Origin: Octopus sinensis
Taxonomy: Eukaryota
DNA length: 64,000 nucleotides
Assembly (NCBI RefSeq): GCF_006345805.1
Contig: NW_021836134.1
Location: 248,001 to 312,000 of the forward strand
Direction: 5' to 3'
Part shown: positions 1 through 63,123 of the stretch, in pieces
How positions within the stretch are numbered: position 1 is the stretch's first letter
Layout: every line of letters begins with the position of its first letter
The notes under the pieces: model-generated
Seen by the model: the letters and a program-made list of their open reading frames with translations, nothing else
The model's database searches: none
Told to the model about the DNA's origin: nothing
Translations under genes and position numbers: made by a program

Positions 1-762
1 TCGAATGATCCAATTTGCTGCTGCCCTTCGTGAAGATTCGCTCTCTTCATCTTCCAAATTATAACTCCTTTTAAAGCATTCAATCTATTTATTTACTATT
101 CTTACTTATTTGTTTTTGGATAAACCACTTTGCTTACCTTGGGAGTGTTTCTTATATGTGTAGTGTTTGAGTGGTTAGTAATACTTGATTCAGTTCCTTC
201 TATTTGCTTTTTAAATAATTGTTGACCTTATGAGTCGAGTGCATGTTGATTAATGAATTGGTCGTTAAGAATATCAACTAATCAGTTTCTTTGTAGGTCA
301 TACTTAAAAGGCAAGGAATCGACTTGGTCTTAAATCATCATAACTTTAAAGGACCCCAGCAGAAAGCACTTTGTTTTTTTAATTAAAAATATATTGAAAA
401 ATACTTATCCACTTACAAGTAATAACAACTAATTACAGTATCAGCCTGTATGTTTTGGGATTAAAATTATATTTTAATTGATTCCACTTGACCTATCTTG
501 TCTATATTGTATTCTCCCCTCATAACACACTGCAACAACCTCCAAAATATGAAATAATATTCAAATTTAACATTTTGTCTGGTAGATTGCTAATCGATCA
601 GACTACTATTAATCAGTGGATATTATTATTAAAACTTTACATGTGGACAATTTTAGAATCTTGTACTTATTGATTGTCTGTCAAATAAACTATAAACGAC
701 AATATTGGTTTTAACAAGGTCACACAATCCCTTTTCGTGACTGGAGCACTCGGGTATGGAAA

Positions 763-3719
763 TTAGGAACGGGGTACTGCCACGTTAATGTTCTTCCCAG
801 TCTTCAACACCTTGTACTCACCGGGGGGTCTCTCCAACTCAATTTTTAGGCCTTTCCCCAAACTTTGAAGAAGCTGTTTGTTCTCAGTCGACAACCTGGC
901 CACGGAATCCCCAAAAACGTTCACTTCCTCGACAGTTCTTCTTTCCTCCTTCACAGAGCGAACCAATCGAAGAACCTCTCGGACAATCTCCACTCGCTCA
1001 CATGCCAATTTATCCTCAATACTCCACCCACTCGGCCACTTTTGATAAGCTAAAGGCACGTGCTGTTCCTTTCCGCCATGATAGAGCAACCACTCGCTCA
1101 AAAAGGGCATAAATGGACTCAGCAAGACGAGACAGCACCGACTACACCTGTAAAGACACTGCTCGACTTCCTGGCACTTTCCAACAGCAAGACGCCCTTT
1201 GGACCCCTCCTGACATTAAATAACATGGAAAACCAAATATATTCCGCACAATTCGTTTTGCCACAAATTGCGGATTTCGGCCACAATCAAATGGAAGTCT
1301 CTGTTCGAAAAATGCTCGTCGTAGCAATTTAAAACTTGGGAAACCCGGGAATAAGCCACATCTCCATGTCCTGCTCTGATCCTGTCAACTGAGACAGTCA
1401 AATTAGTCTCCTAACCAGAGGCATTGGAAGGGGTTCAAAATCAGGTGACAATCTCATGTTAATAAATCGAATTGTCTGCCATATTTTGTTGCAAAAATGA
1501 CGAGAAGGAGTAAACATATCTATTCCCAGCTTTATATGAGTTACTACATTAAAAAATTGAATCAACAAATCAATCATTTGAACATAAACGAAAAAAAAAC
1601 CTTTGATGTCGTGAGAACAAAGAGTGAGACGCAACGCATCAGCACCAATTACGTTTCCATGTGTCGGTTTCTTGTGAAATAACCATTTATAGTACCGAAA
1701 TATAATCAAGTGGATCAACCACATTGCCCAAAGATTTACTCATCTTTCTTCCTTTACTATCGCAGACCAATCCATGTAAGACAACTTGTCTAAAGGGCAT
1801 CGTGTCGAGCAGAAGGAGTGACATGAGCATCATTCTGGCCACCCAAAAAAACACAATATCCCCGCCCGTCTCGAGCACTGCCTGAGGGTAATATTGTTTC
1901 AAATATGGGTTGGTCGGCCACCCAAAAACAGAGAAAGGAATTATAGCTGAAGAAAACCACGTATCCAACACATCTTCGTCCTGTTCCATACATTTCAAAT
2001 TATATCGCCAATTTCTGACAATTTTTCGATAATTCGTCTTCAGTTGAAAAAGACGAGCATGCCTCTGCCCCCTAAGACTTACAAAGTGACCCCTAACTTT
2101 ATTTTCTGGTGGTTTTTCCTTAACAAAACAGATTTCCGTCTTCTGTACAGTCTCAAAGAATGTCTCATCAGACGACAAAATTTGGTTTTGGCCTGTTGGG
2201 AAGAACGTGCCACAATCCACTGATCCCCCACTTTATAGGCAGGAATACGATGCCCCCACCAAAGCTGTCGAGAAATGCACCACTCCGGAGATTTGCTGAG
2301 CCACTCCTCCAGAATATTGGCATAAAACGGAGGGACAATGGAGACATGTCCATTCCGTACTCCCTCCAGGACTCTCCGATGTCCCTCCGTGCAATGCATA
2401 TACCACTGCTCCATCCTCACCGTCTCCACCACGTCACCAGAACGGGAACATATTGGAATGTCGTAAGAGTGGTCGTCGAATCCTTCATACAACCCACAAT
2501 CCTTCAAAAATTCAACTAGTCGTCCTCTTGCCTCAAATCTGTCCATTCCCTATCTGTAAACACACTAAATGTACGTCAAACTGAGTATTTGTCCCAAATA
2601 TGGCCCCCGCCTTGTTAATAACAGAGCGTGTTTTGAGGATTTTGTGCTTCATTGCCATTTTATAGTCAACTGGACTATGTGCGGGGGTCAGTTTAAGAGC
2701 TCCACTCCCAAGAGTCATAGAAACGTCCAAATCAGCAATAATAGGCATGTATTGCCCAGTCAACGGGTGTTTGGCTGATCGACCAATAAAACTATTCCAA
2801 CGTGTGTCCTCAGGGTGGACTGCAATGCCAGAATCTCCCAACATTGTTTCCAATCGAGTGGTCGAAACAGTTATTTTCTCCCCACAAGAATCGGCCAGTG
2901 GGTAGGAGAAGTGATGGAGCACTCCAAACTGAGCTTTCTTGCAATTTTTCATTTGTTTGTAGCAATTTTTATCCACTTTCATAAAGTCGAGCTATTTTTA
3001 GTAAATTGAATCAACCTCAATGTCGGAAATGACTGACTGGAGTGCAGGACACCAATTCACAAACCGACTGGCTCGGTGGATTAGTCCCATTTCATAAAGA
3101 CGACAAAATGCTTCACAAACGGCTTCAGTCGACTTCTACAAACATAAAAACACAACTACATCATCCATTGTAAAGTATTTAAAACGCAGATCAAAAGAAC
3201 AACCCAAAAGAGCCAGTTGTTGGTAGATTTGAGTCTCTTTGCTTAAAAATTGGTTAATAAAATAACTTTTCTCGCCATTTTTGCACATTTTCAACAAAGG
3301 CAGTTCTTCCGAGGTCAAAACGGGTTAGTCCTTTGGTTTGAGCGAGGTGTCGTTCGACGACGGTCTGAGTGGCAATTCCTGCGTGGTCACATCCGGGGAC
3401 AAAGAGGGTGTGGTCACTCCCCTCGAAGCGTCTCCTCCTGATCATAACGTCTTGGAGAGTACAGCCTAGGGCGTGTCCCAAATGGAGAGTTCCCGTCACA
3501 TTTGGCGGGGGAGTGCAAATCACATATTTGGGGGAATTGTCCTCAAATAGTGAATTTTACTGTACTTTGGAGACTTGGAAGTGTCCCGAGTCAGTCCACC
3601 ATTTGGATAGGATTCCTTCTATTTTTTGTGGGTCATATTTCGAATGCAAATCGCCTTTTGGGTGTGATGGAACGATTACCTCTAGTGCCGAACACAGAGT
3701 GCAGTCGGCGACTGAACAT
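763..3719 (-). CDS. VARS2: Valyl-tRNA synthetase, probably mitochondrial, with 11 introns
   Basis: Motifs [13 protein letters not shown] (HIGH), [55 protein letters not shown]-terminus [13 protein letters not shown] resembles a presequence. Introns: 3655-3679, 3542-3565, 3242-3266, 3136-3159, 2992-3015, 2550-2574, 2072-2097, 1671-1695, 1544-1600, 1389-1415, 1210-1233. One remaining 1-bp frameshift near 1352 in a short A/T run. Confidence 0.93.
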
Positions 3720-3949
3720 GCCACTTTAATTTATTTAATTTATATTTATTACATTCACAATTATAGTGCTGTATAAACTCCAATGGACAAAAATAATTAT
3801 TAATGTATAGAAACTGTGTTAATATTTGGTCTTGATCAGTTTCTTGTTGCATTCTGACGTTTTTTCTGTCATTTTCCCAGCAACCTTGAAACGCTGTCTA
3901 ACAACTTTTTTTATCTGGCCGTTTAGGCCAAACTGAGGTCAGAAAATAT

Positions 3950-10400: not shown

Positions 10401-10942
10401 TTAAAATTTTAGGTTTTTAGGGTAAATTTTTGATGCTTTTTTAAATTTCATTCTTCTGTTTTGAAACCAAATTTTAATTTGGCGATCAGTTAAATTGAGC
10501 TCAGTCGCCAAATCTGTTCTCCTTTCTTTTGTTAAATATTTTTTCTGACAAAATTCCTTTTCTAATTCTACTATTTGTTTATGCGAATAGCAAGTCCTTG
10601 ATCTTGGTAAATCGTTAAAAAAATTGTTTTTTATTACTTTGAAAAATTTAATTAAATTAAAATACCTGATTTTTTTGTCATCCACGGATACATGGGCACA
10701 TTTGGGACTGTTTCGGAAATACTAGAATCATTTTCTGGAAAATAAAAATCAGTAGTAGTATATTCCGCCAAATTTTGATCCGTATACATATTAAATGGCA
10801 TGTGACTGAAATTTGGATCGTCTGGATAATATGTAGTATATTCATTGTTTATGCCTTCGTAAAAAAATTCAAAATTTGATGATTGGTGAAAGTGAAAGTA
10901 ATCAGGATTTGTGTAATTTTTTTTCACCTGCTTTTTACTCAT
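10401..10942 (-). CDS. Hox-class homeobox gene (170 aa), divergent, with PG3/PG4-like features
   Basis: Hexapeptide VPMYPWM, then a 29-nt intron (10637-10665) at the canonical hexapeptide-homeodomain position. Homeodomain [19 protein letters not shown]...[16 protein letters not shown]. Confidence 0.92.
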
Positions 10943-12589: not shown

Positions 12590-13600
12590 TGCACTGAATT
12601 CCGCCCTCTCCGTCCTCTGAAGTCTGGTTATAAGAAAGTAAATAACTCACATAGACAATTCTTTGGGGTCCCTTCCAGTCATTGACTACAAACAAATATC
12701 AGTCAAGGCTGGCAATGAAGGCAATGGGGGTCTAGTCTTCAAGTCATTCTCCGGAAATTCTCATCATGTGATCCTTGAAGGTGCCATGTTCTATATTGAG
12801 TCCTTTAATCGCATCCTTCGATTATATGCTGTCGAAAATGGGGTCGACGGCGGAATTAGCAATTGTTTTGGCGGCAGCGGGAAACATTTGATAATCTCAG
12901 TACCATTTTTTTGTATTGTTCAAAAGATCCCCCAAAACACTATCGTTTGGCAGTGTGGAAAAATTTTGACGGAATTAAATCGAGAAGACCACTTTTTATT
13001 GCCGCCCATGGAAAAGGTGGCGGGAACGGGAACCGCGCTATTCGTTCTTCAGTGACCAGGATTCCGAATTTGGCGGTATATGGAGGGGTCCGCGAAGCTT
13101 TTTGATTTCGAGCTTGAACTTAAGTTTATGGCAGATGTTAGTTTGGTTTGTCATCTTTATTGATTTGAGTAAGATTGGCTTCCCAAACGCGGGAAAATCT
13201 AGTTTTTTAAACCCAATTTCCCGAGAAAAGTCACGTGTCTTCTCCATTCCGTTCACGACTCTGATACTTCAGGTCGGAGTATTTGAGTTTGAGGATTACC
13301 GTCAAATTACCTTCCGCATTTGTGAAGGACTCCTTAGTTGATAGAGGTCTTGGATTTGATTTTTTGAGACAAATTGAACGGTGTCGTGGTATGGTGTTTG
13401 TCTTTGACCTTTCTCTCGATTTAAGGTGCGAGTTGGAGGACTTTAAAGAGAAACTGAATCGTTTTTTATGGTTTGCAATAAGTCGATTTACAAGATGCAA
13501 ATAAGAGATTTAATGATTTTGTTTGTCTGAGGACACTCTACTGACGCTTGTGGCTGTCTCTGTCAAATTTGCTGATTTTCTGACTAAATTACGCTCTAAA
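12590..13600 (+). pseudogene. Obg-family GTPase (GTPBP10/MTG2-like), unprocessed pseudogene
   Basis: IDYKQISVKAGNEGNGG, GKGGGNGN, ADVSL/IGFPNAGKSS across a 28-nt intron (13146-13173), PFTTL, GLGFDFLRQIERC. Several frameshifts and deletions. Confidence 0.8.
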
Positions 13601-23560: not shown

Positions 23561-24088
23561 CATTGTGGGCGTGTAGACATTAATTGTGGATATAAAGGAT
23601 TTATCAGTCATTCCACTCTTAATCTGGAGTACTGCTGTTCTGTCATTAACCCTCAAAACTGTGTGAATTCCCCCATCAAGACATTTATGTATAGCAAAGC
23701 CAAGTGTTTAGTAGTTGCATTCGGAGTCTGATAGCAAAAATCTGAAATATCCGAGTTCTTCTAAACTGATTCTTCACTTTAGTCTCCTATATACTGGATC
23801 ATAGAACGTTTTAAATAAAATTAAAAAAGAAAGGTCGAGGGTATAAATATTTCATGCGAGCTCAGCGATGAAAGCTGCGAAGAGATGATTTGTTGAAAAG
23901 GATTCTTCTTAGAACGTATAAAATATTATAAAGGTTGTCTATTGAGAAGAGACATCGATTACTTGAGTATTCAATACATGCTACTCTCATTTGGAAATTG
24001 AACAAAAAGTAGTGGGAGGGGAATGATTTTGATTAATTGGAAATATTTTATTATTAATCACTCACTGGGTTGAAATTGAAGTATTATA

Positions 24089-26167
24089 TGTCACCGGCTC
24101 ATTAATGGACCCGGCATATTAATGGACCGCATCAAAATCTCATTAATATCAATTACGTCCATATGAAAAGTATCTTACTTTTTTCTAAGTCCAATTTTAA
24201 ACCTATTTTTGATGGTTTTAATGACTTCTGGAAAACTAAGATTGACAACATAACAAACCTAACCTCATTTTTGAAAATTATTGATTAATTATTATATTGT
24301 TTATTATATTTAGAGGGTTTCCATTTTAAAATAATCAATTTTTCATTTTAAAATAGTAATAATAAACTTTTAAAATTTGAGATATGAATATTCTAACGTA
24401 AAAAGTCAATTTCGAAAGACAATCTTAACCAAACCCTAATTGTTGGAAGTCAATTTGATACTGTTCCCTATGCGGCCTGCGGCCGCAGTGTATTTGACTC
24501 GGATTTTATGATTAATACGATCTTTAATACTTTCTGATTACAATTTCTAGTGTTAAGAGGAACTCTAAATAACAGTTTTATTAAAACTTAATTAAAAAAC
24601 CCCGTATACGACACAATGCAAAACATTAAAAGTTTCAACTATTTATTTTAAAATTTTAGAAAGTCTCGAGATATTAACATTTTTGATTACATTTTTTTCC
24701 ATATCTTCTAGATCATAATTATGAAATTCTTGATTAATCACTGTATACATATTTGTTTGTATTTCATCATACAAAGGATACTTTCTGTTTGAAACATTTC
24801 CATCATAATCATGTCTAATAATCACTTTATCTCCCACGTTTATATTTTCCTCATCATATCGCCATTTTCTTTTTTTCTTCATTTTCTCGCCTGCTTTTTG
24901 AAGATTTTCCAGAATCTTCATATTCTGCTGGTCATCTTCCGAGCATTCATTTTTTTCGTAATTTATTTCTTCTTCTGGGTCAGTTCCATCGAATGCCATT
25001 AATGCATTTATTTCATTTTCGTCTGGTCTTTTTTTAATTCCCATAAAACTTCGAAAAGGAATATTCTTGGTCGTGTCATGTTTGTTCGATTGTAATCATA
25101 TACGATCTTCCTTATAATGTTGAAGTAAACTCCAAAACTTCCAGCTGAAGCACTTGTTGAGGATATCCACCGTTTAATTGATTGGTTGAACCTTTTTATT
25201 ATAGCTTTAAAATAAACCTTTCAACTTGTCCTTGTACCCAAGGTGCTCTAGGTCTTCCACAGATATGCTTTATTTTAAAAAATTCACACAGCTTATCCAT
25301 TTCAGAATTGCGAAACTCCCTTCCGTTATCAGTTTGGAGAATGACGGGTTCTCCAATAACGTAAAAAATATTCTCAAGTAGAGATGAAATTTCCAATGCA
25401 CTTTTATTCTTTGCTAATTCTACAACAGCATACTTAGTAAACGAATCAATGACCACAAGAACCTTCATATAAATAATTATTTAAGTTTACCCACGAGTTT
25501 GATCGATTTATTTCTGAATATCTTCTGAGATCTATAAGATCTGCGATATAACGGTCTCTAGGACCTCTGGCAATGATTGGAGTGATAAGTGGCTTGGTTG
25601 CCATCAATTTTTTGGACTAGCTAATAAATAAATAGCCAATACTTGACAATAAACACATTTGTCTAAAACAAAGCGGATATCTTCTCTCATTATGTTATAG
25701 AAAGTATTCCTCCACATACTACTAAGTCTATCTCGGCCAAAATGGATTTTATTATGCTCAGACTTCAATAAAGCAGATAAACTACCTCAATTATCTTTAA
25801 TTTCAGTTCCTTATCTTCAACTGCAAAGAACCGTAATTTTAGGTCACCCTTCAGTAAAAACGCTTTACCGTCTTCAAAAACAAATTTTTGCGATAGCTCT
25901 TTTAATCGAAATCGTTGTTTCTTGTCTAATGAATTCTCAGCTATTGATGAAATTTGGAATTTCTCAATTTTTTCAAGTTGTTCCCTAGTCAATTCCAACA
26001 AACGCATCAAACACGTGTAAATAAAAAATAATAAAAAATATAAAATTATGCTACAATTTATATAAAAACATATCTCTACAATGGGTTAATATTTATTTAT
26101 ATAATTTATTTTGCAATTTATGCAATCGGTCCATTAATATGCCGGGTCCATTAATGTGCCGGTCACA
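24089..26167 (-). mobile_element. Ginger2-like DNA transposon with retroviral-integrase-type transposase and four tiny introns
   Basis: About 40-bp TIRs beginning TGT, TATAA flanking both ends. Spliced CDS 26007 to 24643: H2C2 finger (EHNKIH..KCVYC), IADLID, VIDSFTKY, LQTDNGREF, QGQVERFN. Introns 25763-25785, 25617-25642, 25463-25490, 25192-25217. Confidence 0.92.
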
Positions 26168-26639
26168 TTATATTGTTAATATTACTTTGACTTCATTTTG
26201 AGGAGTGGACAACATTATTTTTTAACTTGGATGGTACAAATATTGCACATTTTAGGCATTTTATAGCAATAGAGAAAAGAGCATTTTTAATGACATCGGG
26301 CAGAGTTCGCATAGAAAGTCGTTTCGAATTCTCGAAGAATCTTTTCGAGGAACTGGAAATAATTATAAGGGGCAAATCGTCTATTGAAGGGTAAAAAATT
26401 TACTACGTAAGAAATCGTTAAAAATCAACATATATTAACAAAACGAGTGAAATATTAATAAAAACGCAATATATAAAGTAAGTAAAGACTAGTTAAATTA
26501 TGACCACTTGTATTCTAATCAAAATGCCAAAGAATATGCAAAATAGATGCGAATGTACGTGTCACGCCATTTAAATAGTTTTAATTTAAATAAAATATAT
26601 TTTTTTATTAATTATCTTTATTTTTAATTGCATTTTAAT

Positions 26640-29667: not shown

Positions 29668-30957
29668 TTTGTTTCTCATTTACGTCATCATCGTTTTCGA
29701 GGGATTCTTCCACTTCGTCTATTTCAGTGTACGTGTGTAATCAAGAAAATCTGATTGTTCCATTGGATCCAAAATATTCAATTGCTTTATTGTCTCCTCA
29801 TATTTCTCAATCGTATAGTTAGAAGATTGAATTTGCTCTTCACATGGAATCCACTTAGCATGCCTGAAACAATTTTTGATAGTTTCTTCGGTGACTTCAT
29901 TCCAACCAAAATAGATAAATAAAACTCCATCTTTAAGTGTTAAATTTTTGTATGATTCATTAATGCCATATCCGCATTCAATTTTCTGAAGAATTTCATT
30001 AAATTTGAACTTATTGAATTTAGTTTTAAAGGAACGAATTATTCCTTGATCCATCGGCTGCAATATTGTTGAGGTGTTCGGAGGAAGAAAAAGAATTTCA
30101 ATAAATTTTAATTCGATTAATATTTTATGTGATGGGCATTGGTCAATAATTAAAAGAATTTTTTTTCTTTTTTAATTCAATATCCCAATGATAAAGCCAT
30201 TCATTAAAAATTTTTTTAGTCATCCATGCTTTTGAGGAATGACAGTATTTTAAATATTTCTCAATTTTAATGTTTTTAAAACATTTTGGTTTCTGATATT
30301 TCCCAATTATTAATGGAATTTTCTTATCTGATCCGGCCATATTTGTACACAGAAATAGCGAAAATCTACTAATGATTAATAAAGTTTCAACCGATCTTTA
30401 AGGATTTTATTTCCAGGTCGAGTTTTTGAGCAAATGCTTTTTAAAGGAACATTTTTTATAAAAAACACCAGTTTCGTCACCATTGTAAACATTTTCACGA
30501 TCATATTGTTGTAATTTCGTAGATAAAATTATTTGAAATTTTTTAATTTGCTCATTTAGATTTTCAGTTATTGAGCCAGATTCTCCATGGAATAATCTTA
30601 ATTTTAAATTGTTTCTCTGTTTGAATCTGGAAAGCCATCCATTGCTTCCTATAAATCGAGAAAATTGAGGCAATTCGATTTAAGCTAAGAGCCTTATTTT
30701 CATCAATGAAATTTAAAATTCTTTGCTTTTCCTCAAAAGATAACCGAGTACACTTCCGCATGGTTAATAAATGTGGAAATTATTTTATTGTTTTAAATTA
30801 AACCATTTTATTTCAAATTAAAAAATTAAAATAGTGGCGAGTAACTGAAACTGGCGAGTAACTGAATTCTTCTTATAAAATTCGATTTTTCGTTAAAAAA
30901 GTGGCGACTAACTGAGGTGGCGAGTAAGTGGGGTGGCGACTAACCGGGGTTTGACTG
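29668..30957 (-). mobile_element. One-ended pogo/Tigger element
   Basis: SNGWLSRFKQR, NGDETG, SKAWMT, QPMDQGII. A single terminus (minus strand CAGTCAAACCCCGG) ends at 30957. Flanked by a 64-bp duplication. Confidence 0.85.
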
Positions 30958-58389: not shown

Positions 58390-59286
58390 ATGGCAGCGAG
58401 GACTCTGTTAGTTCTTGTTGATTAAAAATTAGGTACTTTGGGAACCTACCTGGCTGTATTGACGAAAACTTAATAATAATGCTGATTACTCGTTTCGAGG
58501 TGAATTGTGTGTCCTGCAAATTGATTCGAGAAGTATCGGACGACCCATATTGCTTTGTCGAATTCTGCAGTCGAGAAGACGGAGAATATGTGATGGCCCA
58601 ATTAAGCAATATTGAATTATACGGCAAGAAAATACGAGTAAAATGGGCAGCCGTGCCAAACAAGCAAGACACAAGCAGTAATGAACTATTCTTCACCCAC
58701 AGAACACTTTCACATATTCGTGGGGGATATCAGTCCAGATATCGACAACGAAGCACTCCGTAGGGCATTTGCTCAGTTCGGGGAGATATCGTAATGGAGG
58801 TGTGACATGGCAGGGACTGCAAGGTCGTGGTTGATCCAGTCACACAAGTTTCGAAGGGATATGGGTTCATCTCCTTCATTCACGAAGAGGATGCTTCCCG
58901 TGCTATTCTCCAAATGAATTCTCAGTGGCTTGGGAGTCGGCCAATTAGGACTAATTGGGCCTCACGGAAAGTGTGTCCCACAAAGGACCGTTCTTATAGA
59001 CAAATATCAGCTCAGACAACTCAGACTAATTCGACTGTCTATGTGGGGGGACTGCCTCCTGGACTTGTTTCGGAAGACACTCTTAGAGCTGTTTTTTCCC
59101 ATTTTGGGCAGATTCTTACAATTAGAGTTTTTGTCCAAAAGGGATATGCTTTTATTCAGTTGTATTTGGTGTTTTGATGGCAGATTTGATCGGAAGGAGA
59201 GTGCTGTTCAGGCTATTCATTCTGCACATTCACTTTCCATTGGTGGCTTTCCTCTCAGGTGTTCTTGGGGAAAGGAGTTTTATTAA
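58390..59286 (+). CDS. TIA1: TIA1/TIAR RNA-binding protein, three RRMs, 265 aa
   Basis: RTLYFGNL, DPYCFVEF, HFHIFVGD, SKGYGFISF, WLGSRPIRTNWA, TVYVGG, KGYAFI, CSWGKE. Introns 58407-58432, 58678-58702, 58791-58813, 59159-59183. Confidence 0.93.
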
Positions 59287-59766: not shown

Positions 59767-60287
59767 TTAAAGTTGGAATTTAGTCTTGGAATGAACATCG
59801 TCAATGATAGAAGCAATACTCTCGTCAGATAATTTATCAGAAAGACTGACATATCAAAAACACAGAAACCTCGGAATCAGCGCTTTGGCCTGAGAGACTG
59901 TAGAAGGGGCCAAATTAGCCAACTGAGCTCGCTCGAATTTATGCAATTCAGGTTTCCCCAAGGCTCTACTCATTCAGAGATCCCCGATAACCTGCGGACA
60001 GCACTGACTGTTTCCTTTGTCTTGAAGCGACTGAATAAATTGCAGTAATCGAGTGTAGATCGGAAGACTTCGGAGGTCTCGAGAGCATCGTCGTCCTGGT
60101 TATTGGCATCTTCACTGAAGGAGTATAAAGACAAGTCATACCGATGTTGTAAGAGGATCCTTACTTCTGAAATTAAGATTGTTTCGGCGTCTTCAAAGTC
60201 TATGTTTGTTAGGAGAGTTAAATTTTATATAAAACCGTCGGTAAAGCATAAATAATCGCTATTTTCTTCTTGTTCGGGTGGCCTCAT
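59767..60287 (-). CDS. POLR2D: RNA polymerase II subunit RPB4, 135 aa
   Basis: Spliced protein DFEDAETILISEVRILLQHR..SEVFRSTLDYCNLFSRFKTKETVSAVR..LHKFERAQLANL..AKALIPSL..IIDDVHSK. Introns 60200-60235, 60115-60141, 59966-59991, 59846-59869. Confidence 0.93.
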
Positions 60288-60602
60288 AAGAATCAAAACT
60301 ATTTATTTATTTATTTAATTTAATAATGTTATAATTATTTAAATTAAGTAATATTTGTATTATTAATTTAATTAAATAATTTAAAAATTACATTTATATT
60401 AATAGGAAATTATTATTTAAACGATCATGTATTTTGTTATTATAACATGAAAATATTAAATTTAAAAAATCAAGTTTTTTTAATTTTTTCAATTATTATC
60501 TAATATTTAAATGGTTATTAAATTATTTAAAAATTAAATTTATTTGTTTTAATTATTTAATCTTGTGGTGTTTATTCAATTTACAAAGTCAGCCACCCAA
60601 AC
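60288..60602. promoter_or_regulatory. Putative bidirectional promoter between POLR2D and GABPA
   Basis: 315 bp of extremely AT-rich DNA between two divergent start codons. Confidence 0.5.
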
Positions 60603-61305
60603 ATGTACAACTCAGAGGAGTGCTCAGAACTGGTTGCGAATTCTCCCAAAAAAAGACAGAATAAAGAACAACTACAATGTTTGGTGGACATTGATCGTCC
60701 GATATATACAATTCTATCCCTCCTTCGAAGTGAGACTGGTCACCCCCTGAAAGACTATTCTATCCACGTCCAAGACGCCCTGATTGTACTAAAATTTTAA
60801 TTTATCTAAGAATGACACAAATTCGGCAGTCTCCTCTCTTTGTGTGAACCACAATGGGCCAGTCGAAGTGCTGGTCGAAGTTCAGCATGGTTTTATTATT
60901 TATAAATAACTCAGAATTGAGATCTGTAAACGTTTTGGACGTTGTTTCAGTGAGGCAGAACAGAGGAGTGCAGTTGTGGCAGTTTTTGTTGGATATGCTG
61001 ACAGACTATCGATGTTTGGAGGTCATTCGGTGGGTGGGGGACAACGGAGAGTTCAAATTAGTCAATCCTGAGGTGGTTGCTCATTTGTGGGGGGTCAGGA
61101 AGAACAGAGGAACTATGACTTATAGCAAACTGAGTCGTGCTTTGCGTTATTACTATCAAGGGGACATGCTTGCTAAGGTTGGTCTTTCTATTTTTATGTT
61201 TAGGTCACTGGGAAGAGGTTTGTTTATAGATTTGTGTGTGATTTGAAGACAGTTGTGGGGTATTCTTCTGCTGAGTTAAGTCTTCTTGTTAATTCTGTTG
61301 AATAA
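60603..61305 (+). CDS. GABPA: ETS transcription factor GABP-alpha, 208 aa
   Basis: OST-like N-terminal domain (VDIDRPI..LL..YSIHVQD..VNVLDVV). ETS domain [35 protein letters not shown]-type tail [22 protein letters not shown]. Introns 60786-60810, 60890-60914, 61178-61203. Confidence 0.92.
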
Positions 61306-61885: not shown

Positions 61886-63123
61886 TGTGACCGGCACATT
61901 AATGGACCCGGCATATTAATGGACCGATTGCATAAATTGCAAAATAAATTATATAAATAAATATTAACCCATTGTAGAGATATGTTTTTATATAAATTGT
62001 AGCATAATTTTATATTTTTTATTATTTTTTATTTACACGTGTTTGATGCGTTTGTTGGAATTGACTAGGGAACAACTTGAAAAAATTGAGAAATTCCAAA
62101 TTTCATCAATAGCTGAGAATTCATTAGACAAGAAACAACGATTTCGATTAAAAGAGCTATCGCAAAAATTTGTTTTTGAAGACGGTAAAGCGTTTTTACT
62201 GAAGGGTGACCTAAAATTACGGTTCTTTGCAGTTGAAGATAAGGAACTGAAATTAAAGATAATTGAGGTAGTTTATCTGCTTTATTGAAGTCTGAGCATA
62301 ATAAAAACCATTTTGGCCAAGATAGACTTAGTAGTATGTGGAGGAATACTTTCTATAACATAATGAGAGAAGATATCCGCTTTGTTTTAGACAAATGTGT
62401 TTATTGTCAAGTATTGGCTATTTATTTATTAGCTAGTCCAAAAAATTGATGGCAACCAAGCCACCTATCACTCCAATCATTGCCAGAGGTCCTAGAGACC
62501 GTTATATCGCAGATGGAAAAAAATGTAATCAAAAATGTTAATATCTCGAGACTTTCTAAAATTTTGAAATAAATAGTTGAAACTTTTAATGTTTTGCATT
62601 GTGTCGTATACGGGGTTTTTTAATTAAGTTTTAATAAAACTGTTATTTAGAGTTCCTCTTAACACTAGAAATTGTAATCAGAAAGTATTAAAGATCGTAT
62701 TAATCATAAAATCCGAGTCAAATACACTGCGGCCGCAGGCCGCATAGGGCACAGTATCAAATTGACTTCCAACAATTAGGGTTTGGTTAAGATTGTCTTT
62801 CGAAATTGATTTTTTACGTTAGAATATTCATATCTCAAATTTTAAAAGTTTACTATTACTATTTTAAAATGAAAAATTGATTATTTTAAAATGGAAACCC
62901 TCTAAATATAATAAACAATATAATAATTAATCAATAATTTTCAAAAAGGTTAGGTTTGTTATGTTGTCAATCTTAGTTTTCCAGAAGTCATTAAAACCAT
63001 CAAAAATAGGTTTAAAATTGGACTTAGAAAAAAGTAAGATACTTTTCATATGGACGTAATTGATATTAATGACATTTTGATGCGGTCCATTAATATGCCG
63101 GGTCCATTAATGTGCCGGTGACA
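61886..63123 (+). mobile_element. Internally deleted copy of the Ginger element
   Basis: Near-identical to the reverse complement of 24089-26167 but lacks 24701-25538 (junction GCAG-AT-GGAA at about 62513). TATAA on both flanks. Confidence 0.95.

What the first reader, a model, noticed from the sequence alone, without database searches (positions are those of the whole stretch)
24089..26167. Ginger transposase interrupted by four host-sized micro-introns (23, 26, 28, 26 nt)
Seen: the H2C2-DDE integrase frame is continuous only after removing four tiny GT-AG introns, one of which splits the catalytic VER/FN motif. A near-identical second copy at 61886 shows recent mobility. Known: Ginger elements can carry introns. 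Inference: here they have shrunk to the host size class, so the element depends on this host's splicing. That would block horizontal transfer and could give the host splicing-level control of transposition.
Basis: partly seen in the sequence, partly recalled or inferred. Interest (0 to 1): 0.72.

Follow-up and report, generated by a model that had tools for sequence, protein, structure and literature searches.

The report
Parasite transposon with gained tiny introns
A recently copied jumping gene, likely from a tiny kidney parasite (a dicyemid) co-assembled with an octopus genome, has its transposase gene cut by four 23-28-base introns at positions shared by 15-21 related families; the introns were likely gained inside the parasite rather than shrunk from long ones, which would make these families a natural record of how new introns arise.

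Summary
The four introns are real. This 2,079-bp Ginger2/Tdd-like DNA transposon (TGT..ACA TIRs, 5-bp TSD, H2C2 + DD35E) sits on a contig of a micro-intron animal, likely a dicyemid, inside a 2.7-Gb host assembly. The same four positions carry 22-35-nt introns (median 26; host genes 25) in 15-21 of 21 related families, with unrelated interiors and conserved exons. Contigs of two runs of unrecorded kind lack I1 and I4 exactly; I3 is inferred; I2 is untested. Corrections: this copy also has a 1-bp frameshift, and the second copy is a deletion derivative lacking the DDE core. 'Shrunk' is not supported: 0 of 80 outside loci share the positions, sister lineages here have other introns or none, and further introns appear in nested subclades at host size, so gain is likelier. 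This genome's families are not one clade (AU p 6e-65) and interleave with microsporidian-labelled proteins, which suggests repeated transfer. A transfer block and splicing control are untested; intronless families are equally absent from the host chromosomes. The scan found similar intron gains before on other DNA of this genome.

The parts
24084..24088 (.). 5-bp target-site duplication TTATA (3' side of the element)
24089..24129 (-). 3' terminal inverted repeat, 41 bp, ends ...ACA
24643..25191 (-). exon 5: end of the DDE fold and C-terminal SH3-like part, with stop codon; 1-bp frameshift near 25081-25085 in this copy
25192..25217 (-). intron 4 (D), 26 nt, phase 2, in the Arg codon after catalytic E237
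   Evidence: left out in a contig of X5, kept in a contig of X3
25218..25462 (-). exon 4: integrase core with D201 and E237 (Pfam rve, E 1.3e-11)
25463..25490 (-). intron 3 (C), 28 nt, phase 0
   Evidence: skip inferred from the depth and gap count of an X3 contig
25491..25616 (-). exon 3 with first catalytic D140
25617..25642 (-). intron 2 (B), 26 nt, phase 0
   Evidence: no spliced contig covers it
25643..25762 (-). exon 2: H2C2 zinc finger (H77, H81, C110, C113; Pfam Integrase_H2C2, E 1.9e-4, below the curated cut-off)
25763..25785 (-). intron 1 (A), 23 nt, phase 0
   Evidence: left out exactly in a contig of X3, kept in X8
25786..26007 (-). exon 1 coding part, from the predicted ATG at 26007
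   Evidence: the start codon is inferred
26127..26167 (-). 5' terminal inverted repeat, 41 bp, starts TGTGA
26168..26172 (.). 5-bp target-site duplication TTATA (5' side)
61886..63123 (+). non-autonomous deletion derivative (element 1-629 joined to 1466-2079), TSD TATAA, keeps I1 and I2 unspliced; the same breakpoints occur at 3 more loci

Best explanation
This is a Ginger2/Tdd-like cut-and-paste transposon whose transposase gene is split by four 23-28-nt GT-AG introns, on a contig of a micro-intron animal (likely a dicyemid), and the introns were likely gained at host size after an intronless ancestor likely entered that lineage. How it works. Shown: TIRs, a 5-bp AT-rich TSD, H2C2 + DD35E, a premature stop if any intron is kept, and a multi-copy deletion derivative that keeps its introns, so it moves as DNA. 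Inferred: the parasite's spliceosome removes all four introns to give a 420-aa transposase, which cuts at the TIRs, inserts with a 5-bp stagger and also mobilises deletion derivatives in trans. This copy is itself broken by a 1-bp loss (mutation or assembly error). History (inferred): several intronless Ginger lineages related to microsporidian elements entered separately, and each gained its own micro-introns at ordinary AG|G-like sites. The lineage with introns A-D radiated into at least 21 families and gained more introns in subclades (364.2, 307.1). The gains are likely near-neutral and then irreversible.
For: Introns real: the same codon positions carry introns in 18/15/21/21 of 21 families; 75 introns, 22-35 nt, median 26 against 25 for 21 host ValRS introns; all three length classes mod 3; interior similarity 0.35-0.38 against 0.35 shuffled; exon pN/pS 0.14-0.39. 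Contigs lack I1 (X3) and I4 (X5) exactly, and I3 by depth arithmetic; DNA-like runs X2, X4, X8 show pieces that keep them. Passenger: two ValRS sets in G000, compact on small contigs and kilobase-spaced exons on C1/C2; ETS and homeobox genes in the window; identical family proteins are labelled Octopus sinensis; only myxobolids and a dicyemid had such introns among 51 animals (PMC13644364). Gain: 0 of 80 metagenome loci have A-D, while 22 have predicted introns elsewhere; other lineages in this genome have none (L061, L071), 136.2, 47.1+136.2, or 146.2+280.1; 364.2 is in 4 families of one subclade, decayed in a fifth and cleanly absent in 11 others; 307.1 is in one family; monophyly of the 20 G000 rows is rejected, p-AU 6e-65; 7 of the 9 named proteins among 30 looked up are microsporidian.
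Against: The nearest outside sisters of the A-D clade (P0157, P0133, P0137, P0180) are unnamed and have no DNA context, so their intron state is unknown; P0180 falls inside the clade and outside it. The 80 outside loci are distant (at most 40% identity), the search favours intron-free matches, and one of its two patterns spans D. Position 136.2 occurs in two distant lineages (parallel gain or an old intron). B is cleanly absent in 3 families whose place at the base is unresolved (gain or loss). Trees are unrooted for direction; the final trees use LG+G4 without mixture. The kind of runs X3 and X5 is not on record, their copies are about 96-97% identical relatives, and I2 has no spliced cover. 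The aligner only allows GT/GC-AG ends. TE introns are slightly longer than the host sample (Mann-Whitney p 0.012). The dicyemid assignment is inferred, not tested against a dicyemid reference.
Confidence: 0.7

Rival explanations
1. One reading: introns A-D are old Ginger introns that shrank with the host's own introns.
For: Ginger elements can carry conserved introns (PMC2836005). A-D predate the radiation of 21 families, so they are old. Host introns shrank in conserved positions in myxobolids (PMC13644364). The intron state of the closest outside sisters is unknown.
Against: 0 of 80 outside loci share A-D, while recurrent outside introns sit at 139.0, 91.0, 269.1 and 248.1. Younger nested introns are already 26-31 nt. 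It needs many exact losses in a DNA transposon.
Confidence: 0.15
2. The parasite lineage is the old reservoir: the ancestor was intron-rich, and the intronless families and microsporidian relatives arose by RNA-mediated intron loss and export.
For: B is cleanly absent in 3 families; 136.2 is shared by two distant lineages; LINE reverse transcriptases are present in the window; loss prevails in CACTA transposases (PMC4158355 abstract).
Against: The intron sets of the lineages barely overlap, so the ancestor would need about ten introns and each lineage a different set of losses; outside proteins are far more diverse than the G000 families.
Confidence: 0.1
3. The segments are not spliced: they are decayed insertions or assembly artefacts in dead copies.
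For: No run on record as RNA holds the stretch; this copy has a further frameshift; one X3 contig keeps I4.
Against: Position and splice ends are conserved across 21 families with saturated interiors, exons are under purifying selection, and contigs lack I1 and I4 exactly.
Confidence: 0.03

Closest known systems
Ginger2/Tdd DNA transposons, above all TDD-4/TDD-5 (Bao, Kapitonov, Jurka 2010, PMC2836005; parts 1-2 of 5 and passages read)
   Same: TGTNR ends, H2C2 + DDE integrase-like transposase, no GPY/F, no OTU or Ulp1 domain, AT-rich target; the 5-bp TSD matches TDD-4/5.
   Different: 5-bp rather than the 4-bp TSD of animal Ginger2; shorter (1.8-2.1 kb against 2.7-6.7 kb); TIR 41 bp; four micro-introns; nearest named relatives are microsporidian.
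KRBA2/SCAND3-type GINGER2 integrases (Llorens et al. 2012, PMC3575427; passages read)
   Same: Databases name the relatives 'KRAB-A domain-containing protein 2' and 'SCAN domain-containing protein 3'.
   Different: Those are domesticated single-copy genes; this is a mobile multi-copy family without KRAB or SCAN domain.
Ultra-short spliceosomal introns of Dicyemida and myxobolids (PMC13644364 parts 1-2 of 3; PMC6543705 and PMC6736024 passages)
   Same: GT-AG, AT-rich, median 26 nt here against 27 for Dicyema sp.; weak splice signals.
   Different: Those reports concern host genes; here they are in transposase genes, at positions private to transposon lineages.
Introns in other DNA transposases: Ginger1 (1-4 introns), CACTA (PMC4158355 abstract), mollusc TLEWI Tc1-like elements (10.1101/656579 abstract)
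   Same: Spliceosomal introns interrupt DDE transposase genes and vary among families.
   Different: In CACTA loss prevails; TLEWI lack TIRs and look domesticated. Here recently mobile TIR elements show repeated, likely gains of about 26-nt introns.

Membership tests
Ginger2/Tdd | TIRs with TGTNR termini | tested here: met
   41-bp TIRs; TGTGA at the 5' end, TGTCA at the 3' end
Ginger2/Tdd | H2C2 zinc finger plus integrase-type DDE core | tested here: met
   Pfam rve E 1.3e-11; Integrase_H2C2 E 1.9e-4 on one exon; D140, D201, E237
Ginger2/Tdd | TSD of 4 bp (animals) or 5 bp (TDD-4/5), AT-rich | tested here: met
   exact 5-bp TSD in 15 of 18 TIR pairs found among 70 loci; 52 loci had no pair in the fetched stretch
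Ginger2/Tdd | no GPY/F motif, no reverse transcriptase, RNase H or LTR | tested here: met
   no GP[YF] in the C-terminal 150 aa of 15 of 15 proteins; single gene between TIRs
Ginger2/Tdd | no YPYY motif | tested here: inconclusive
   absent in the window's clade, but relatives P0125, P0133 and P0139 show a YP...F...Y/F stretch upstream of the zinc finger; compared by eye with the paper's description
Ginger2/Tdd | groups with reference Ginger2/Tdd transposases in a tree | not testable with these tools
   no reference Ginger2, TDD or Ginger1 sequence was held; only database names (KRBA2-like, SCAND3-like) point that way
Ginger1 | 4-bp CCGG/CCGT TSD | tested here: not met
   5-bp AT-rich TSD
Ginger1 | GPY/F motif and C-terminal OTU or Ulp1 protease | tested here: not met
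Dicyemid-type micro-introns | GT-AG, mostly under 30 nt | tested here: met
   69 of 75 are 30 nt or shorter
Dicyemid-type micro-introns | removed from RNA | tested here: inconclusive
   I1 and I4 left out exactly, I3 by inference, in contigs of runs whose kind is not on record; I2 not covered
Dicyemid-type micro-introns | contig belongs to a dicyemid | tested here: inconclusive
   metazoan genes with micro-introns, a second animal in the assembly, octopus label; no dicyemid reference to compare
Introners (intron-generating transposons) | introns at different sites resemble each other | tested here: not met
   cross-position similarity 0.36 against 0.35 shuffled; old introner origin would no longer be visible

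The most novel reading that the evidence does not exclude
Intronless Ginger transposons jumped repeatedly from microsporidia into dicyemids, and each lineage then 'naturalised' by gaining its own 22-30-nt introns de novo. Intron gain was favoured because spliced transcripts escape silencing of intronless RNA, so the intron-richest lineage radiated most (21 of 26 sampled families) and is now locked to the parasite's spliceosome.
Probability: 0.25. Interest if true: 0.8.

Novelty: new variant of a known kind. Interest (0 to 1): 0.52.

Why it matters
De novo intron gain is hard to study because an intron-free ancestor is rarely known. These transposon families give replicated before-and-after cases: intronless sisters, lineage-private introns and nested later gains, all near the lower size limit for animal splicing. 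They also point to transposon exchange between microsporidia and dicyemids, and show that parasite transposases are filed in databases as octopus 'KRAB-A domain protein 2-like' genes. If shrinkage held instead, it would show transposon introns tracking host intron size.

Tried and rejected
No RNA holder was listed by the look-up of sequencing runs; this blank is no evidence either way. I2 and parts of the element had no cover in X3, X5 and X8. Viral contigs: 55 pattern matches, none a relative. A search of G000 for microsporidian SSU rRNA (RF02542) got no usable answer twice, so a co-assembled microsporidian is not excluded by that route; intronless families share contigs with intron-bearing ones (C1794, C9082, C7755, C7757), which argues against it. 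Rejected: LTR retrotransposon fragment (TIRs, TSD, no RT); octopus origin of the window; introner origin; the second copy as an autonomous element. The in-frame 24-nt segment at 285.2 in the L187 lineage and calls in the poorly conserved region aa 290-360 are not counted as introns. No structure or complex was predicted, as neither would change the reading. Literature searches listed no paper on dicyemid transposon introns; supplements (for example the repeat tables of PMC6736024) and Repbase were not seen, and most subscription papers are outside the library.

Full report
Observation. The element spans 24089-26167 on the minus strand, with 41-bp inverted ends (TGT...ACA) and the 5-bp duplication TTATA. 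Three-frame translation shows an H2C2 finger and a DD35E core in pieces, joined by removing GT-AG segments of 23, 26, 28 and 26 nt. Pfam finds rve on exon 4 (E 1.3e-11) and Integrase_H2C2 on exon 2 (E 1.9e-4, below cut-off). A spliced aligner written here, given the outside nematode protein P0001, places I3 and I4 exactly, plus the I1 donor and I2 acceptor; P0002 places I4 only. I4 splits the Arg codon after catalytic E237. Keeping any one intron gives a stop after aa 80, 126, 170 or 243.

Two corrections. A 1-bp loss near 25081-25085 shifts the last 146 codons; 10 of the 11 other copies that cover the site have the extra base, so this copy is broken or mis-assembled. The copy at 61886-63123 lacks element bases 630-1465. 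The same breakpoints occur on C8886, C12418 and C8597, with different flanks, so it is a non-autonomous derivative moved in trans. It keeps I1 and I2, as expected for DNA-level transposition.

Whose DNA. G000 has 2.72 Gb in 13,516 contigs. A ValRS exon finds two compact genes on small contigs (C12605, C8460) and two with exons 1.1-1.7 kb apart on C1 and C2: two animals in one assembly. The compact ValRS genes have 21 introns of median 25 nt. The window also holds ETS, homeobox, Obg, RRM and Rpb4 genes. Proteins identical to two families here are labelled Octopus sinensis. PMC13644364 (parts 1-2 of 3 read) found such introns only in myxobolids and Dicyema japonicum among 51 animals. PMC6543705 (passages) gives median 27 bp for Dicyema sp. 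PMC6736024 (passages) describes D. japonicum from O. sinensis renal sacs, 49% repeats, with no occurrence of 'ginger'. A dicyemid is therefore likely (about 0.9), but no dicyemid reference was compared.

Are the introns real? Exon 4 has 2,108 candidates in G000, of which 150 were scored. I took 30 returned loci and 40 chosen ones; they form 26 families at 85% core identity. In the 21 families of the window's clade, introns sit at aa 75.0 (A), 115.0 (B), 157.0 (C) and 238.2 (D) in 18, 15, 21 and 21 families. The 75 introns are 22-35 nt (median 26, 69 of 75 at most 30), fall in all length classes mod 3, and their interiors are no more alike than shuffled (0.35-0.38 against 0.35); 8 family pairs have exon pN/pS 0.14-0.39. 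Two are GC-AG. The aligner permits only GT/GC-AG, so the evidence is the recurrence of position, not the dinucleotides. Of the misses for B, 3 are clean absences (L057, L084, L079 family) and 3 are deletions or truncations; of the misses for A, 2 are truncations and 1 has a TG end.

Transcript-like evidence. No holder is on record as RNA. Among contigs laid, X3 leaves out exactly 25763-25785 (I1), and X5 leaves out 26 nt at 25189, the shifted equivalent of I4. An 880-nt X3 contig has 31 gaps and a depth dip of 28 nt in the bin holding I3, but keeps I4 (my arithmetic). X3 and X5 share an organism code and several substitutions, so I4 kept in one and removed in the other fits RNA with incomplete splicing. 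X8 keeps I1; listed pieces of X2 and X4 span I1, I3 and I4 without such gaps, though only the best-supported rows were shown. These copies are about 96-97% identical relatives, the run kinds are unrecorded, and I2 is not covered.

Shrunk or gained? 0 of 80 metagenome loci have introns at A-D; 22 have predicted introns elsewhere, recurrently at 139.0 (10 loci, 67-395 nt), 269.1, 91.0 and 248.1. These loci are distant, not all cover A and B, and the search is biased against D. Inside G000, other lineages are intronless (L061, L071) or carry 136.2, 47.1+136.2, or 146.2+280.1, all 22-30 nt. Within the 21-family clade (100/98), 364.2 is present in 4 families of one subclade, decayed in a fifth and cleanly absent in 11 others; 307.1 is limited to one family; the three B-less families lie in the basal polytomy. 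Younger introns are thus already host-sized. In a 73-row tree (20 outside rows, mostly long or distant, and 13 of the 21 clade families left out for time; 7 short matches dropped), G000 families fall in six places among outside proteins, and their monophyly is rejected (p-AU 6e-65). Of 30 outside proteins looked up, 9 carry names and 7 of these are microsporidian: Dictyocoela muelleri 4, Nosema granulosis 2, Nematocida 1. P0126 is 55-59% identical to the L063/L064 family. Microsporidia are reported from dicyemids (PMC8262960, passages) and carry Ginger elements (PMC5751038, passages). Repeated entry of intronless elements followed by separate gains is the most economical reading. Against it: the four nearest sisters of the A-D clade are unnamed and lack DNA context, 136.2 is shared by two distant lineages, the trees give no direction, and the microsporidian contigs are short and could be contaminants.

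Transfer block and host control. None of the scored matches (40, 150 and 104 candidates scored) lies on a chromosome-scale contig; all coordinates are below 1.3 Mb. That includes the intronless L061 family, so introns are not needed to explain the absence from the host. Cross-kingdom transfers of DDE transposons are rare in general (10.1101/2021.09.26.461848, passages). A barrier is plausible for long-intron recipients but untested. Selection for introns as an escape from silencing has a precedent in human HUSH (PMC8770142, abstract), but nothing here tests it.

Comparison and verdict. By PMC2836005 (parts 1-2 of 5 and passages) the element works like Ginger2/Tdd: TGTNR ends, H2C2 + DDE, no GPY/F or protease, and a 5-bp TSD as in TDD-4/5 (15 of 18 TIR pairs). 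It fails Ginger1; placement against reference sequences could not be tested. Introns in transposases and micro-introns in dicyemids are each known; their combination with repeated gains and microsporidian kinship was not listed. Earlier scan notes reached similar readings on other DNA of this genome; they are not independent support. Verdict: real feature, new variant of a known kind, interest 0.52. Introns real about 0.97; gain rather than shrinkage about 0.7.

Noticed in passing
window 30366-30391, minus strand: A pogo-like transposase (DDE_1) has a 26-nt GT-AG segment in an Arg codon (phase 2) at the start of its DDE domain, so micro-introns are likely not limited to Ginger here.
   Followed up: partly
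L052-L055, L091 at aa 75: All five copies of this family have a roughly 29-nt segment at position A that ends in TG instead of AG: a possible GT-TG intron, or an inherited defect.
   Followed up: no
L060 family at aa 238; L048 at aa 115: GC-AG micro-introns of 27 and 25 nt.
   Followed up: partly
L061, L071 (P0124, P0125): Passenger transposases are filed in NCBI and UniRef as Octopus sinensis 'KRAB-A domain-containing protein 2-like'.
   Followed up: yes
window 24861 joined to 25635 in a contig of run X3: A second internally deleted form, joined at a TGGC microhomology, with I1 removed: likely a transcribed non-autonomous copy.
   Followed up: no
window 760-3720 (-), 10404-10721 (-), 12642-13338 (+), 58422-59174 (+), 59973-60224 (-), 60561-61243 (+): Host genes: ValRS, homeobox, Obg GTPase, RRM protein, Rpb4 and an ETS/GABPA-like factor (26-nt intron at 61178-61203). 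ValRS shows a frameshift near 1352.
   Followed up: partly
window 16.7-22.2 kb, 27.6-29.2 kb, 31-33 kb, 33.6-36.4 kb, 38.0-38.6 kb, 43-44.6 kb, 49.5-52.2 kb: Dense mobile-element field: reverse transcriptase genes, a Tc1-like element with roughly 206-bp TIRs, BED/hAT pieces, a Merlin-like (ISXO2) transposase and two more pogo-like elements.
   Followed up: no
L187, L188, L190, L192, L193, L195 at aa 285: An in-frame 24-nt GT-AG segment without a stop in a 60-bp-TIR family: intron or coding insert, undecided.
   Followed up: no
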